Source: a virus (Duplodnaviria > Heunggongvirae > Uroviricota > Caudoviricetes). From it: a DNA stretch of 4,619 bases. Position numbers and translations under genes: made by a program. Below the pieces are notes generated by a model, which had not been told where the DNA came from, ran no database searches, and saw nothing but the letters and a program-made list of their open reading frames with translations. How positions within the stretch are numbered: the stretch's first letter is position 1; every line of letters starts with the position of its first letter. This document shows positions 1 through 4,619 of this stretch, piece by piece. The stretch is taken from positions 1 to 4,619 of IMG/VR virus record IMGVR_UViG_3300039330_000026; one strand, given 5' to 3'.

Positions 1-29
1 GCTGTCATAACACTGTGTTACCTGGCTAA

Positions 30-629
30 TCAGAATTTATAACCGACACCCACGATGAAACCGTCAGTGCGCCAGTCGCCACTGCCGGAGCCTTCATAAG
101 CAATATCAATGGCCACGGATTCGGTCGGGTTAAACTGCACGCCAGCTCCCCACGCCAGAGACGTGTTGCTGTGGCGATCGTCATCACTTCCGGTCAGCAC
201 ATCGTGCGTTTTCCCCTTGTTGTCAGTTACGCGGAGATAATCCCCGGAGAACGTCGAAACACGGCTGTAAGCCACACCTGCCATCGCATAAGCACTGAAC
301 CATTCATTCACGCGTACAGATGGCCCCGCCATCATGCTGAACCAGCGGTTACGCACTGAATCTTCATGCCAGCGGGTATCGCTGTAATGCGTTTTTTGCT
401 CATCTTTGGCATTGGCATAACTGAATGACGTCACCAGCCCCAGCGTGTCCGTAAATTCATAACGGTATTTCACGTTAATGCCCTTCAGGTCATCGCTGCC
501 TGGCATATCAGTATGGGTCTGAAGATACCCGGCGCTTAGTGTGGACTGATGCTCTGCTGCGCTCGCTGGCGTACCAGCGGCAACCAGCCAGACTACTGCG
601 GACAGAATAACAGCACATAATTTACGCAT
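30..629 (-). CDS. lom: Lom-like outer-membrane beta-barrel protein (Ail/Lom/PagC/Rck family), phage lysogenic-conversion moron
   Basis: Complete 199-aa ORF (ATG at 627-629, TGA at 30-32). The N-terminus MRKLCAVILSAVVWLVAAGTPASA-AEHQ looks like a Sec signal peptide: basic start, hydrophobic core, A-x-A cleavage motif. The C-terminus ...IAYEGSGSGDWRTDGFIVGVGYKF ends in an aromatic residue, as in outer-membrane beta-barrel signals, and matches the C-terminus of lambda Lom as I recall it. Internal blocks (KGINVKYRYE, SAYAMAGVA) are also lambda-Lom-like. It sits directly downstream of J, as in lambda. A GAGAGG Shine-Dalgarno lies 5 nt upstream of the ATG. Confidence 0.9.
   Translation of the reverse strand: MRKLCAVILSAVVWLVAAGTPASAAEHQSTLSAGYLQTHTDMPGSDDLKGINVKYRYEFTDTLGLVTSFSYANAKDEQKTHYSDTRWHEDSVRNRWFSMMAGPSVRVNEWFSAYAMAGVAYSRVSTFSGDYLRVTDNKGKTHDVLTGSDDDRHSNTSLAWGAGVQFNPTESVAIDIAYEGSGSGDWRTDGFIVGVGYKF
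558..629 (-). other. Predicted Sec signal peptide of Lom (residues 1-24, cleavage after A-S-A)
   Basis: Read from the translation: MRK, then hydrophobic CAVILSAVVWLVAAG, then TPASA followed by AEHQ. The cleavage position is inferred from the AxA rule, not computed. Confidence 0.6.
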
Positions 630-634
630 AATTA

Positions 635-640
635 CCTCTC
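635..640 (-). promoter_or_regulatory. Shine-Dalgarno for lom (GAGAGG on the minus strand)
   Basis: Minus-strand sequence GCGAGAGGTAATT-ATG; the purine-rich core ends 5 nt before the start codon. Confidence 0.6.
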
Positions 641-653
641 GCTTTTCTGCAAT

Positions 654-678
654 AAAAAAGGCGCCATTTCTGGCGCCC
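654..678 (-). terminator. Rho-independent terminator candidate between J and lom
   Basis: The minus strand reads GGCGCCA-GAAA-TGGCGCC followed by TTTTTTATT: a 7-bp GC-rich stem, a GNRA-type tetraloop and a U-tract. It lies 19 nt after the J stop codon. Confidence 0.7.
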
Positions 679-696
679 GTATTGGGGTTATAAAAT

Positions 697-3600
697 TCAG
701 CTAATCGTGATGCCTGCAGTGGCTTTCTTCATCACAACAACCAGCAAATCGCTGATACTTGCTGTGGGATACCAGCCATTTACCCACCATGCTGATACAG
801 AAAACTCCAGCGTCATGTCGCCGCGACCAGCAGGCATATCAATAACACCACTGTAAACCAGCGTATTATCCATCGCGGTACGGTTATAAATTTCAGCACC
901 GTTTTTCTTCACTATCAGGCGGCATGACGAATAAGTATCGCTGTTCTCCCGCTCATGTCTGGCACCGCTGAAAGCCACCGCCGGAATAACAATCTGCCGG
1001 TTAAACGGCTGATCGTCATAAACCCTGACGGTAATGGTTCCTGATGGCCAACGCTTCGGTGCACGGGAGTCACGAGGGAAAGCCTTACCCACTGTTTTAA
1101 CGAGATCGCCTTCAATCTGGTTTGCAGACAGTTTCCCTTTAATCTGACAGTTCTCATTTATCGTAACGTTGTTGAGCGTCCCGGCGTTCGCATTCACACT
1201 GCCACTGATATCCGCATTTTTCGCCGTCAGTCGCCCGTCCGGTGTCAGGGAAAATGCCGGAGGATTACCGCCGCTGGTAATGGTGGGAGCCGTCAGATAT
1301 TTCAGGAACACGTCATTCATGAATATCTGATCGCCCTGACCAACAAACATCGGCTTTGTGTTGCCATTCGCAGGATTAATCATCGCAATCCTGTCTGCCG
1401 CCAGCAGCACCTGACTCTGCATGCCGTCGGGGGTGTTCTCAATACCGGCACCGATACCCGCAATATAAAGGCGTCCGTCCTGCATCTGCTGCAGCTTCAC
1501 TGCCCACATGCTGTTCAGGTTATTATTTGTATCAACCTGAACCTTCTGTATCTGCTGGATCGCTGCACTCTGGTCTTCCAGTTTCTTATTGACGGTCTGT
1601 GTTATTTCATTGCTGACATCCGTTATGGACGTCCTGATTTCAGTCAGGTCAGGCGCAAGCTGACCGTTATCAATCTGCGTCCACAGCTCCTGAGCCAGAT
1701 GGGTTTTCCCTATCTCGCCTTTGAAAAAATCCAGATAGCCGGATGCATCATCACTCGGCTGACCAACAGCCTCCACGAATGCCGATTTGCCAACGGTGTT
1801 CACACTGCGAACGTAAAAATAATAATCATGGCCCGGTTTGATATTGATACTGGCGGCTATCCAGTACAGCGCCGTACCAAGATAACGCGCGCTGGTTTCA
1901 ACCTGCCTGATATCAGCAATCCGTTTTTCCGAGAACCAGAACTCAAACTGTACCGTCGGATCATAAACCGCAAGATGCGGCGTGGCGGTTATCTGAAAAT
2001 AGCCCGGCGTCAGCTCAATCCGCGACGGCGCTGCCGGTGCGGCAATCCGGAACGATACCGACGCCGGATCGCCCTGCTGCCCCCACGCATTTACTGCCCG
2101 GACTGTCAGCCTGTAGTTCCCCAGAGCCAGTTGTGTGAAGCGGTAAGTGGTTTCCGCCGTCCGGGCCGTGCTGACCAGCCGCTCACTGCCGTCATCCGCT
2201 GTTACGGTCAGACGGAGCAGGAAGCTCACGCCCTTCACCACCTTCGGCGTGTCCCAGCGCGCCAGCACCTGATATTCCCCGCTGTCTGCGGTGACTTCGG
2301 CGGTCAGGTGCTGCACCGCTGGCGGCGTGACACCATTCACCGTGCCGCTCTGGTCGCCGTCAAAGTGCGCTCCGTTATCCACGATGGCCTCTTTTTCCGG
2401 TACATGCTGCACGGCGGTGATGGCATACGCACCATCATCGTTCTCCCGGATACTCACACAGCGGAACAGGCGCTGGCGCAGCGTCGGCAGCTTCAGCCCC
2501 CACACGCTGTATTCGGCAACGCCGTCAGGAATACGGCTCACTTTCACCTTCACGCCGTCGGTGACGGACTGGACCTCCACGCTGACCGGATTCCCACTTC
2601 CGTCAACCAGGCTTATCAGCGTGGTGCCGGAGGATGACAGCATGATTTCACGGTCGAGCGTCAGCGTCCGGGTCTGGCTGTTCACCGCCAGCACGCGACC
2701 ACCGGTGCTGATACCGGCATAGTCATCATCACAGATTTCAATGACATCGCCCGGCACATGGCGAAGCCCTTCTGCGCCGACGCTGAAATCCACGGTCTGC
2801 GTTTCCAGCAGTTCTGTTTTAATCAGCCACAGCCCGGCGCGGTGTGCCTGCCCCCGACTGGTACAGCCAAAGGCATCCATCTTCGTGACGTTACGACCGT
2901 AACGGGCAATGGCCTGCGTGTCCTCCACAAGCTCTGTCGCCGTCTCCCAGCCGTTATCCGGGTCAATCCAGTTCACCTCAACGGCATTATGGCGGTCCTT
3001 CAGGGCGCTGAAGCTGTAGCGGAACGGCGCGCCATCATCCGGCATCACCACATTACTGCGGTTATAGGTCCACACCTTATCCGACGGTCGGTCCTGCACG
3101 AACGTCAGCGTCTGCCCGTTCCATACCGGCATACAGCGCATCGCCGAGCAGAAATCACTGAGCACATCCCACGCCTTGCGCTGTGTGGTCAGGTACGCAT
3201 TACAGGTAATGCGCGGCTCCGTGCCGCCAAAGCCGTCCGGCACCGACTGGTCGCAGTACTGGCCGATGACATACAGCGCCCATTTATCCACATCCGCCGC
3301 ACCAAGACGTTTCCCCATGCCGTAGCGCGGATGGGTCAGCATATCCCACAGACACCAGGCCATGTTGTTGCTGTATGCTGGTTTTAACGTTCCGTCCCAG
3401 ATACCGCTGTATTGTCGCGTCTGCGGGTTATAGTTCGACGGCACCTGCAGAATGCGCCCGCGAAGATGATAATTACGACTCACCTGCTGGCTGCCGAACT
3501 GCTCCGAGTCCACCTGTACGCCGACCAGTGCCGTGTTCGGGTAGCACTGTTTCACATCGATGATTTCGGTGTATGACGACCAGAGCGTTTTGTTCTGCAG

Positions 3601-4176
3601 CTGGTCTGTAGTGCTGTCCGGCGTCATCCTGCGCATCCGGATACTGAACGGGCGCGGCGGCAGGTTACCCACCACCACCGAGGCCAGATACTGTGAGGTG
3701 GTTTTGCCTTTAATGGTGATGTCTTTTTCCGTCACCCAGCCACCGTTACGTTGTATCTGAACCAGCAGGCGGACTTCCGACGGATTCCGGTCACCCTTTG
3801 AGGTGGTTTCCACCAGTGCCTGCACACCAAAGGTAAAGCGCAGACGGTCGATATTTGCAGACGTGATGGTGCGGGTTATCGGCGTGTCGTATTTCACTTC
3901 CGTACCCAGCACCGTCTCGGAACCGGAGGATTCAAATCCCTCCGGCGGTGACTGCTCCTGCTCGCCTGCCCGGAACACCACCGTGACGCCGGAGATATTG
4001 GTATTCCCCTCACTGTCCAGCACCGGCGTACTGTTCAGCAGCACGCTTTTTAATCCATCCACCGGACCTTCAATCGGCCCTTCGCTGATGGCATCAATCA
4101 CACTCAGCAGTTGCGTGGACTTCAGGTTGTCCTTCGCTTCGCGCGGGGTATGCCCCTTACTGCTTCCTTTGCCCAT
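697..4176 (-). CDS. J: Central tail fibre / host-specificity protein J (lambda gpJ family tail-tip protein)
   Basis: Complete 1159-aa ORF (ATG at 4174-4176, TGA at 697-699). The N-terminus [54 protein letters not shown] and most of the first ~820 residues match lambda gpJ as I recall it. The length is typical of the family (lambda gpJ is about 1130 aa). The gene sits between I and lom as in lambda. A GGAG Shine-Dalgarno lies 8 nt upstream of the ATG. Confidence 0.95.
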
Positions 4177-4236: not shown

Positions 4237-4619
4237 TCAGCGGCCAATCACCACAACCTGACCACCGTCCCCTTCATCTGCCGTGCTGATCTCCTGAGAA
4301 ACCACACGAGACCCCACGCGCATTTCACCGTACAGAACAGGCAGAACATTGCCCTGGGCAACCATGTTATCCAGTGATGAGAAATAGGTGTTCTGCTTAC
4401 CGTTATCCGTGCTGGTCGCTGTGGGCGTCCGGGCTTTCGGTGCCAGCATCTGGGCCACACCACCCAGGATCATACTGGCCCCTGCCGCATACATGCCCGA
4501 TACAGCCGCGGCACCCAGCCAGCCCACAGGGTTCCACCATGCCACCGCAATCAGCGCCGCCCCCAGCACCACCTGAAACACACCGCCACTTTTAGCTCCC
4601 GCCAGACGCGGCACGATGT
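4237..4619 (-). CDS. I: Tail-tip assembly protein I (lambda gpI-like), C-terminal part; 5' end lies beyond the window
   Basis: The minus-strand frame is open from the window edge to TGA at 4237-4239. The ORF track's 'M' at 4612-4614 is actually a GTG codon, so the real start is almost certainly upstream, outside the window. The Gly/Ala-rich hydrophobic C-terminus (GGVFQVVLGAALIAVAWWNPVGWLGAAAVSGMYAAGASMILGGVAQ) and the position immediately upstream of J fit lambda gpI; identity to gpI itself is from position and composition, not confirmed residue by residue. Confidence 0.75.
   Translation of the reverse strand, partial: IVPRLAGAKSGGVFQVVLGAALIAVAWWNPVGWLGAAAVSGMYAAGASMILGGVAQMLAPKARTPTATSTDNGKQNTYFSSLDNMVAQGNVLPVLYGEMRVGSRVVSQEISTADEGDGGQVVVIGR

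What the first reader, a model, noticed from the sequence alone, without database searches (positions are those of the whole stretch)
30..629. Lom variant: conserved C-terminal strand, diverged N-terminal two-thirds
The last ~25 residues (DIAYEGSGSGDWRTDGFIVGVGYKF) match lambda Lom as I recall it. The mature N-terminal portion (AEHQSTLSAGYLQTHTDMPGSDDLKGINVKYRYEFTDTLG...) keeps the family pattern of alternating beta-strand residues but differs at many positions. Lom family proteins (Ail, PagC, Rck) are expressed from prophages in lysogens and have been linked to adhesion and serum resistance. Divergence would be expected to fall in the surface loops, where the host or immune system selects. 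This makes the gene a candidate lysogenic-conversion factor of this prophage.
Basis: partly seen in the sequence, partly recalled or inferred. Interest (0 to 1): 0.4.

Follow-up and report, generated by a model that had tools for sequence, protein, structure and literature searches.

The report
Common-type lom gene of lambdoid prophage
This is an ordinary, intact copy of the most common version of lom, a small outer-membrane barrel protein that lambda-like phages encode just after their tail-tip gene. It looks like a "variant" only because phage lambda's own copy is the rare one.

Summary
Window 30-629 (minus strand) encodes a 199-aa Ail/Lom protein (Pfam PF06316, 423 bits, end to end). Its last 25 residues are identical to lambda Lom, and the whole protein is 45% identical.

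The framing is inverted. This 199-aa form is the majority allele in E. coli prophages: one 90% cluster has 24,859 members, and phage 434 and many Stx phages carry it. Lambda's 206-aa allele was found essentially only in lambda itself.

The conserved C-terminus has two causes:
- **Protein constraint.** The YEGSGSGDWRT motif and the ...GVGYKF end survive in Salmonella relatives despite saturated synonymous change.
- **A DNA mosaic junction.** Among E. coli phage alleles, synonymous difference is 0.16-0.32 there against 0.68-0.78 upstream. The non-coding DNA after the stop codon is identical.

Compared with lambda, substitutions do concentrate in the extracellular parts (about 33% identity versus 67% in membrane strands), and all indels fall in loop 1. 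No positive selection was detected.

Function is inferred only. The adhesin/lysogenic-conversion reading remains possible. A 2025 preprint (lambda Lom blocks lambda) and PDB 9wso (lambda Lom deposited with LamB) point instead to receptor masking. Strict pairing of Lom with the J receptor-binding end is not seen. Already known; low interest.

The parts
30..629 (-). lom coding sequence: 199 codons plus the TGA stop at 30-32
   Evidence: ORF list. Pfam PF06316 423 bits, 1-199/199. PHROG 108. Ten fetched viral contigs encode the identical protein.
558..629 (-). Signal peptide, residues 1-24 (MRKLCAVILSAVVWLVAAGTPASA, then AEHQ). Basic n-region, hydrophobic core, A-S-A cleavage motif, no lipobox.
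   Evidence: Read directly from the sequence. The model has a helix at 2-18. This is the most variable segment among window-type alleles, in two haplotypes.
33..557 (-). Mature eight-stranded beta-barrel, residues 25-199. Model strands: 31-38, 51-60, 65-81, 86-106, 111-135, 141-166, 172-182, 187-198. There are long extracellular hairpins at about 75-96 and 121-156.
   Evidence: AlphaFold2 model, mean pLDDT 62.9. Foldseek top hits are Ail 3qrc/3qra and OmpX 1qj9, E about 4e-9. phmmer to OmpX and Ail gives E about 1e-18.
1..113 (-). Conserved 3' mosaic block: lom codons 173-199 (strand 7, loop 4 GSGDWR, strand 8 with the ...GVGYKF end), the stop codon, and 29 nt of downstream spacer
   Evidence: About 93-95% nucleotide identity to lambda here, against about 50% upstream. 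pS is 0.16-0.32 against 0.68-0.78 in the core, p 0.0014 to 4e-7. The 29-nt spacer has at most 1 mismatch in 96/112 window-type, 25/33 T3 and 10/10 lambda-type loci.
114..1740 (-). Block diverged from lambda (about 40-60% nucleotide identity, apart from an island of 83-88% at window ~1142-1321): the C-terminal third of J including its receptor-binding domain, the J-lom spacer, and lom codons 1-172
   Evidence: Sliding identity against lambda. J is 83% identical overall, with the differences concentrated after residue ~820. The last 157 aa of J are 44.6% identical to lambda.
634..640 (-). Ribosome-binding site GAGAGGT, 4 nt before the lom ATG
   Evidence: Read from the sequence. Conserved in window-type and lambda spacers.
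649..678 (-). Intrinsic-terminator-like hairpin (GGGCGCC-AGAAAT-GGCGCC) plus T-run, between J and lom
   Evidence: Terminator scan: 8 pairs, 6 of them G-C. Three of 8 pairs keep pairing through changes on both sides across loci.
697..4176 (-). Tail-tip attachment protein J, 1159 aa, the upstream neighbour in the late operon
   Evidence: NCBIfam lambda_TipJ 2377.9 bits against a cut-off of 1950. Pfam J domains.
4237..4619 (-). 3' part of tail assembly gene I; runs off the window
   Evidence: ORF list. Collinear with lambda I at about 95% nucleotide identity from window ~4380 downwards.

Best explanation
**What it is (shown).** The ORF is a functional lom gene, the small eight-stranded outer-membrane beta-barrel of the Ail/Lom family that lambdoid phages encode between tail-tip gene J and the side-tail-fibre gene. 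It belongs to the 199-aa allele class that dominates in E. coli, Shigella and Escherichia prophages, including phage 434 and many Stx phages.

**Why it looks half-conserved against lambda (shown).** The genome is a mosaic. A block made of the J receptor-binding end, the J-lom spacer and lom codons 1-172 is mostly only about 50% identical to lambda at the DNA level. DNA on both sides is about 95% identical. The right-hand junction falls inside lom at about codon 173.

The junction sits there because this stretch (strand 7, the short loop 4 YEGSGSGDWRT, and strand 8 ending in the barrel-assembly signal GVGYKF) is under strong protein constraint. That constraint keeps enough DNA similarity for homologous exchange.

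**How it is made (inferred).** The protein is exported by its signal peptide and inserted by the Bam machinery. It is made abundantly late in lytic growth, when Q-modified polymerase reads through the J-lom terminator, and weakly in lysogens. This is reported for lambda and not tested here.

**What it does (inferred).** My preferred function, at roughly 45%, is that its long extracellular hairpins act on the cell surface for the phage's benefit. They would mask an outer-membrane receptor, so that infected or lysogenic cells adsorb fewer phages of the same kind. An adhesin or host-interaction role, at roughly 30%, is not exclusive of this.
For: **Identity**
- Pfam 423 bits, full length; PHROG 108.
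- Ail/OmpX fold.
- Position 68 nt after J, with the spacer downstream identical to lambda's.

**Commonness**
- A 95%-identical cluster has 24,859 members.
- 112 of 155 lom-bearing sequences analysed (154 fetched loci plus the window) are this type; 10 of those 112 sequences (one being the window itself) have the window's exact protein.
- Phage 434 carries an 86%-identical copy.
- Of 398 phage records with a Lom homologue, only 21 are at least 99% identical to lambda's and 357 are below 60%.
- Lambda-type copies in 'genomes' of unrelated taxa are 100% identical lambda contamination.

**Mosaic junction**
- Identity profile against lambda.
- pS 0.16-0.32 in the last 27 codons against 0.68-0.78 in the core.
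- Identical 29-nt non-coding tail.

**Protein constraint**
- The Salmonella homologue keeps the motif with pS 0.83 and unrelated downstream DNA.

**Intact and selected**
- pN 0.17 against pS 0.57-0.65 versus the Salmonella and Citrobacter copies.
- pN/pS is below 1 in every segment versus phage 434.

**Function lead**
- Overexpressed lambda Lom protects against lambda-vir but not T7. It is expressed in lysogens and rises late in infection (bioRxiv 10.1101/2025.02.28.640651).
- PDB 9wso holds lambda Lom and the same maltoporin sequence used in the J-LamB structure 8xcj.
Against: **Function is not shown for this allele**
- Everything functional is transferred from lambda Lom, which is only 45% identical and differs most in the exposed parts.
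- No paper describing 9wso is held. That Lom and LamB form a complex there is my inference from their co-deposition.
- The preprint itself notes that Lom levels in a lysogen do not block lambda-vir.
- PADLOC has no model that matches.
- No sigma-70 consensus was found on the lom strand within about 470 nt upstream, so lysogenic expression has no sequence support here.

**Limits of the structural argument**
- The structure model is only of moderate confidence (pLDDT 62.9). Loop and membrane boundaries are therefore approximate, although the result holds for spans of 8-12 residues.
Confidence: 0.85

Rival explanations
1. Lysogenic-conversion adhesin or serum-resistance factor. Lom is made in the lysogen, and its exposed hairpins bind host-cell or complement components as Ail and Rck do. 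Loop divergence reflects selection by the animal host.
For: Family membership and the Ail/OmpX fold. Divergence from lambda concentrates in extracellular parts. Lambda lom has been linked to adhesion of K-12 to buccal cells (Vica Pacheco 1997, as cited). Lom is reported to be expressed from the prophage.
Against: There are no data for this allele. It scores below NCBI's Rck (121.5 of 258) and OmpX (104.9 of 176) equivalog cut-offs. Within the allele class, most of the large hairpin 3 is invariant. Variation sits in a few two-state patches that also have high synonymous divergence, and pN/pS is below 1 everywhere. That pattern indicates exchange of old haplotypes, not an arms race. The same loop-biased pattern is expected for any surface interaction, including one with phage receptors.
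Confidence: 0.3
2. The identical C-terminus is explained entirely by purifying selection on the last strands and the barrel-assembly signal, with no recombination involved.
For: YEGSGSGDWRT and the GYKF/GYRF end are kept in Salmonella and Citrobacter homologues at about 70% identity. In Salmonella the synonymous sites there are saturated (pS 0.83). OmpX and Ail share the ...GVGYRF end.
Against: Among the E. coli phage alleles, synonymous difference in these 27 codons is 3-4 times lower than in the core (Fisher p 0.0014, 4e-7, 0.0015). The 29 nt of non-coding DNA after the stop are identical across all three classes, and the similarity continues into the terminator and the start of the fibre gene. 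Protein selection cannot preserve synonymous and non-coding sites.
Confidence: 0.1
3. Lom alleles are receptor-matched masks inherited together with the cognate J receptor-binding domain as one cassette. Each Lom class would then block the receptor its own phage uses.
For: Against lambda, the diverged block covers exactly the J receptor-binding end plus the Lom exterior, flanked by about 95% identical DNA. Lambda Lom is deposited with LamB and blocks lambda but not T7. Long-loop-1 alleles (lambda, T3) and the short-loop-1 window type share only one of 11 J-end clusters. Sub-haplotypes in loops 1 and 2 track the J type: 60/79 'A' with J0 and 12/16 'B' with J4.
Against: The genes are 68 nt apart, so linkage alone predicts association. 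The window-type core occurs next to at least 6 J-end clusters that are less than 80% identical to each other. One J cluster occurs with two Lom classes, and many sub-haplotype and J-type combinations occur. Phage 434, with a J end only 41% identical to the window's, carries an 86%-identical Lom.
Confidence: 0.18
4. A decaying prophage remnant or pseudogene with no current function.
For: Many database relatives are partial or fused ORFs. One locus has an IS transposase directly upstream (L070).
Against: The ORF is intact, with a ribosome-binding site, a signal peptide and a full-length profile match. There are ten identical copies and thousands of near-identical ones. Purifying selection is clear.
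Confidence: 0.03

Closest known systems
Lom of phage 434 (UMO75363.1, annotated 'Ail/PagC/OmpX porin') and the 'Ail/Lom family outer membrane beta-barrel protein' of E. coli prophages and long-tailed Stx phages
   Same: Same 199-aa allele class, same length, same position after J, and the same 3' end and downstream spacer. Identity is 86% to phage 434, 95% to the 24,859-member cluster P0006, and 99% at the DNA level to phage 2G7b.
   Different: There are only sub-haplotype differences, in the signal peptide, loop 1 (LQTHTDMPGSDDLKG versus LHASTNVPGSDDLNG), the hairpin-2 tip (ANAKDEQKTH versus AGDKNRQLTR) and position 151.
Lambda Lom (NP_040601.1; PDB 9wso chain C)
   Same: Positional orthologue with the same fold family. 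It shares an identical last 25 residues and downstream spacer, and the conserved islands LKGINVKYRYE, MAGP and SAYAMAGVA.
   Different: Only 45% identical overall. Lambda's loop 1 is 8 residues longer. The extracellular parts are about 22-40% identical. Lambda's allele is rare in nature. Whether the window protein binds LamB as lambda Lom appears to do is unknown.
Ail (Yersinia, PDB 3qra/3qrc), OmpX (E. coli, 1qj8/1qj9) and Rck (Salmonella plasmid)
   Same: Eight-stranded barrel of the same superfamily, with about 29-32% identity in the structural alignment, the same periplasmic turns and the same C-terminal ...GVGY(K/R)F.
   Different: Below the equivalog cut-offs. Lom has longer extracellular hairpins 2 and 3, shown as gaps in the OmpX alignment, and a short, invariant loop 4 (GSGDWR) that these proteins lack. 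It is phage-encoded in a tail operon.
Cor (phi80, N15, HK022) and Llp (T5): receptor-blocking outer-membrane lipoproteins encoded next to the receptor-binding protein gene (my own knowledge, not tested here)
   Same: A possible work-alike: a small envelope protein encoded beside the tail-tip or receptor-binding gene that inactivates the phage's own receptor. The lambda Lom data point the same way.
   Different: Unrelated in sequence and fold: those are lipoproteins that block FhuA, whereas Lom is an integral beta-barrel. No blocking activity has been shown for this allele.

Membership tests
Ail/Lom family (Pfam PF06316; PHROG 108) | Full-length match to the family profile above the curated threshold | tested here: met
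   423.3 bits against a cut-off of 23, residues 1-199 on profile positions 1-199/199. phrog_108 at 358 bits, 1-199/199.
Ail/Lom family (Pfam PF06316; PHROG 108) | Eight antiparallel beta-strands forming an OmpX-like barrel | tested here: met
   The AlphaFold2 model has exactly 8 strands, at moderate confidence (pLDDT 62.9). Foldseek top hits are Ail and OmpX at E about 4e-9, with TM-scores 0.45-0.62.
Ail/Lom family (Pfam PF06316; PHROG 108) | Cleavable Sec signal peptide and a C-terminal barrel-assembly signal ending in an aromatic residue | tested here: met
   By inspection of the translation: MRK-hydrophobic core-ASA, then AEHQ, and the C-terminus GVGYKF (G-x-x-aromatic-x-aromatic). No dedicated predictor was available.
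Ail/Lom family (Pfam PF06316; PHROG 108) | Localisation in the outer membrane | not testable with these tools
   Needs cell fractionation or surface labelling.
Lambdoid phage lom (positional orthologue) | Lies in the late operon, on the same strand, between tail-tip gene J and the side-tail-fibre gene | tested here: met
   J (lambda_TipJ, 2378 bits) ends 68 nt upstream. The window ends 29 nt after lom, but those 29 nt are identical to lambda's lom-stf spacer. Loci with the same Lom continue into the MAVKISGVLKDG... fibre gene.
Lambdoid phage lom (positional orthologue) | Short invariant loop 4 and strand 8: YEGSGSGDWRTDGFIVGVGYKF | tested here: met
   Identical in the window, lambda and T3 alleles, and nearly so in Salmonella and Citrobacter. 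Replaced by a longer, variable loop in relatives at 30-40% identity.
Lambda-type Lom allele (the one with functional and structural data) | Close identity to lambda Lom, including the long loop 1 | tested here: not met
   45% identity, with loop 1 eight residues shorter.
Rck (NCBIfam NF011777) and OmpX (NF006917) equivalogs | Score at or above the curated equivalog cut-off | tested here: not met
   121.5 against 258, and 104.9 against 176.
Catalogued anti-phage defence proteins (PADLOC-DB 2.0) | Match to any defence-system model | tested here: not met
   No family at E <= 0.01 for either the window Lom or lambda Lom. The library predates the 2025 report.
Lysogenic-conversion factors | Expressed from the repressed prophage and changes a host phenotype | not testable with these tools
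   No promoter consensus was found on the lom strand in window 1-1100. Expression is reported only for lambda.

The most novel reading that the evidence does not exclude
Lom allele classes, and perhaps the loop-1/loop-2 sub-haplotypes within them, are receptor-specific masks that travel with the matching J receptor-binding domain as one exchangeable cassette. Conserved DNA in mid-J and at the lom 3' end would serve as the crossover sites. On this reading the window carries a J0-type tip plus its cognate Lom, which would block a still-unidentified receptor other than LamB.
Probability: 0.17. Interest if true: 0.55.

Novelty: already known. Interest (0 to 1): 0.18.

Why it matters
On its own, little: the gene is routinely annotated and present in most E. 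coli genomes.

Three points are useful.
- Lambda's textbook Lom is an atypical allele, so results obtained with it (LamB association, protection against lambda) should not be assumed to apply to the common prophage form.
- The apparent "conserved strand" is a good example of a recombination joint located inside a gene, at a stretch where protein constraint preserves DNA similarity.
- If Lom does mask phage receptors, the J-end/Lom block would be a natural specificity cassette. That would matter for understanding superinfection exclusion among the many lambdoid prophages of pathogenic E. coli.

Tried and rejected
**Leads that went nowhere**
- My own recollection of "lambda Lom" was in fact the phage 434/common allele. 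I replaced it with the fetched record.
- The literature search for 9wso returned nothing. A search for Lom with LamB and cryo-EM found only a bioinformatic paper. The Liu et al. 2013 ribosome-profiling paper is not held. The PhiR phage paper has no receptor data.
- Rfam found no RNA family in the window. PADLOC gave no hit. The promoter scan found nothing on the lom strand.

**Hypotheses rejected**
- Strict one-to-one pairing of Lom class with J receptor-binding type: the window-type core sits next to at least 6 J clusters.
- Positive selection on the loops: pN/pS is below 1 in all segments, and the variable patches have high pS.
- General loop enrichment of variation within the allele class: a Mann-Whitney test of extracellular against membrane entropy was not significant (p = 0.41). 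Variation is patchy rather than loop-wide.
- Pseudogene.
- Short antisense ORFs on the plus strand over lom (26-187, 109-240, 171-359). I treat them as chance ORFs; none was examined further.

**Other negative result**
- No fetched locus matches the whole window. The best is 96.2% over 3.6 kb and 96.6% in complete E. coli genomes, so the exact source was not identified.

Full report
**What is in the window.** All long ORFs lie on the minus strand and are collinear with the end of the lambda tail operon:
- the 3' part of gene I (4237-4619);
- J (697-4176, 1159 aa; NCBIfam lambda_TipJ 2378 bits against a cut-off of 1950);
- a 199-codon ORF at 30-629.

The finding's ORF matches Pfam Ail_Lom end to end (423 bits, 1-199 of 199) and PHROG 108 "Lom outer membrane protein". 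It has a ribosome-binding site (GAGAGGT, 634-640), a typical signal peptide ending in A-S-A, and a C-terminus ...GVGYKF. An AlphaFold2 model of moderate confidence (pLDDT 62.9) gives eight strands. Its best structural matches are Ail and OmpX (E about 4e-9).

**Checking the observation.** My own memory of the lambda Lom sequence was wrong, so I fetched the record. Lambda Lom is 206 aa and is 45% identical to the window protein (94/207). The diverged part is residues 1-172 and contains conserved islands: LKGINVKYRYE, MAGP and SAYAMAGVA.

**Which copy is the variant?** The window's form is the common one.
- A cluster 95% identical to it has 24,859 member sequences.
- 112 of the 155 lom-bearing sequences analysed (154 fetched loci plus the window) are this 199-aa type. 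Ten of those 112, one being the window itself, have the identical protein.
- Phage 434 carries an 86%-identical copy. Phage 2G7b is 99% identical in DNA, and VT1-Sakai and many Stx phages are 88-93% identical.
- 4982 of 5426 complete E. coli genomes match some part of the window.

Lambda's allele, by contrast, appears only at about 100% identity. That covers ten IMG/VR loci, 21 of 398 phage records (lambda, HK630, DN1 and similar), and low-coverage contigs of about 48 kb in assemblies of Neobacillus, Kitasatospora, Pseudomonas, Shewanella and others. Those contigs are 100% nucleotide-identical to lambda, so they are contamination. A third class (T3, 207 aa; 61% identical to lambda, about 46-48% to the window) also exists.

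**Why the C-terminus is identical.** Two layers of explanation apply.

The first is DNA mosaicism. A sliding comparison with lambda gives about 95% nucleotide identity across J codons 1 to about 810. Identity falls to mostly about 40-60% from window ~1740 down to ~113, with an island of 83-88% at window ~1142-1321. It returns to about 93-95% for lom codons 173-199 and the 29 nt after the stop.
- Between the three allele classes, the proportion of synonymous differences is 0.16-0.32 in the last 27 codons and 0.68-0.78 in codons 25-172 (Fisher p = 0.0014, 4e-7 and 0.0015).
- The 29-nt non-coding tail is identical or one base off in 96/112 window-type, 25/33 T3 and 10/10 lambda-type loci.
- Where more sequence is available, the similarity continues through a terminator into the start of the side-tail-fibre gene (MAVKISGVLKDG...).

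Protein-level selection cannot explain conserved synonymous and non-coding sites, so this is a shared block bounded by a recombination joint inside lom.

The second is protein constraint. In a Salmonella homologue (70% identical) the same 27 codons are synonymously saturated against the window (pS 0.83) and the downstream DNA is unrelated. Yet YEGSGSGDWRT and the GYRF end persist. In relatives at 30-40% identity, loop 4 is longer and variable. The constraint presumably keeps enough DNA similarity to make this a preferred crossover site.

A second such site probably exists at LKGINVKYRYE. Synonymous difference is lower there. The database protein P0058 is a hybrid whose first 59 residues resemble T3 (58%) and whose remainder is 95% window-type.

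**Where the substitutions fall.** I took the model's strands and counted 10 membrane residues from each periplasmic turn. The turns align with those of OmpX.
- Window against lambda identity is 67% in membrane segments, 33% in extracellular parts and 29% in periplasmic turns.
- All 8 indel columns lie in loop 1 (p = 3e-5).
- The contrast holds for spans of 8-12 residues, and with the identical C-terminus excluded (58-60% against 22-32%).

Within the common allele class the picture differs. Variation sits in a few two-state patches: the signal peptide, loop 1 at positions 37-49, the hairpin-2 tip at 73-81, and position 151. Most of the long hairpin 3 is invariant. Between the window and phage 434, these patches also have high synonymous divergence (pS 0.56-0.81, against about 0.2 elsewhere and 0 at the 3' end). 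pN/pS is below 1 everywhere. This is exchange of old haplotypes, not detectable positive selection.

**Function.** Nothing here tests function directly.
- The traditional view holds that Lom is a lysogenic-conversion adhesin. It rests on family resemblance and one adhesion report for lambda (cited). The protein fails the Rck and OmpX equivalog cut-offs.
- A 2025 preprint found that expressing lambda Lom gives strong protection against lambda-vir but none against T7. It proposes superinfection exclusion, or prevention of wasteful adsorption late in infection, when Lom expression rises.
- I also found that PDB entry 9wso contains lambda Lom (449 bits, full length) together with the same 422-residue maltoporin sequence used in the lambda J-LamB structure 8xcj. 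No paper for it is held. That the two proteins form a complex is my inference.

Together these suggest receptor masking. It would be analogous in logic to Cor and Llp, which are encoded beside the receptor-binding genes of FhuA-dependent phages (my own knowledge).

**Testing the cassette idea.** Against lambda, the J receptor-binding end and the Lom exterior are replaced together, which fits a matched pair.
- Across 143 loci, however, the window-type Lom core lies next to at least six J-end clusters that are less than 80% identical to each other (J0 79, J4 16, J2 3, J3 2 and others).
- T3 Lom lies next to two clusters, and cluster J2 occurs with both Lom classes.
- Sub-haplotypes associate with J type (A with J0 in 60/79; B with J4 in 12/16), but many other combinations occur too.
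- Phage 434 has a J4 end, only 41% identical to the window's, and still carries a window-type Lom. From memory, 434 uses OmpC.

With only 68 nt between the genes, linkage alone can explain the association. I give the matched-cassette reading about 17%.

**Expression signals.** Between J and lom there is a G+C-rich hairpin followed by a T-run (649-678). Its stem keeps pairing through changes on both sides at 3 of 8 pairs across loci, so it is likely a real terminator. Q-modified polymerase would read through it late in infection. No sigma-70 consensus was found on the lom strand within 470 nt upstream. No Rfam family matches the window.

**Verdict.** The gene is a well-known, routinely annotated, very common allele. 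The pattern that drew attention comes from comparing it with an atypical reference across a mosaic joint. Novelty: already known. Interest: low. There is a modest open question about whether Lom classes are receptor-specific.

Noticed in passing
window 649-678 (minus strand): The terminator-like hairpin between J and lom keeps its stem through compensatory changes across related loci (GCGCC/GGCGC, GCGTC/GACGC, GCACC/GGTGC). It is therefore probably a functional terminator sitting just before the lom ribosome-binding site.
   Followed up: partly
window 697-1740 (minus strand), C-terminal third of J: J is about 97% identical to lambda J up to about residue 810. A diverged stretch follows that is 27 residues longer, and then a receptor-binding end only 44.6% identical to lambda's. 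That end is 98.7% identical to phage PhiR40_1 and 88-89% identical to many long-tailed Stx2a phages. Its receptor is unknown to me.
   Followed up: partly
window ~4380-4619 (minus strand), gene I: Another mosaic joint lies inside gene I. Identity to lambda is about 95% below window ~4380 and falls to 22-77% towards the window end.
   Followed up: no
L178-L187 (genome-contig loci): Lambda lom that is 100% nucleotide-identical to lambda appears on low-coverage contigs, several of about 48.4-48.5 kb, in assemblies labelled Neobacillus, Kitasatospora, Leeuwenhoekiella, Pseudomonas, Desulfosporosinus, Shewanella and Oceanobacillus. This is lambda DNA contamination of those public assemblies.
   Followed up: yes
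PDB 9wso: One PDB entry holds both lambda Lom (2 chains) and the maltoporin sequence used in the lambda J-LamB complex 8xcj. This implies a Lom-LamB assembly has been solved. No paper describing it is in the held library.
   Followed up: partly
protein P0058 (207 aa): A hybrid Lom. Its first 59 residues, including a long loop 1, resemble the T3/lambda classes (58% and 51%). The remainder is 95% window-type. This indicates a second intragenic crossover point at the conserved LKGINVKYRYE stretch.
   Followed up: partly
L070 (IMG/VR locus), directly upstream of lom: An IS-type transposase-like ORF replaces the end of J immediately upstream of an intact window-type lom.
   Followed up: no
L220 (phage 434, OL657227.1 18988-19587): Phage 434's lom is annotated only as 'Ail/PagC/OmpX porin'. 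It is the 'B' sub-haplotype of the window-type allele (86% identical) and sits beside a J end of cluster J4 (95%).
   Followed up: yes
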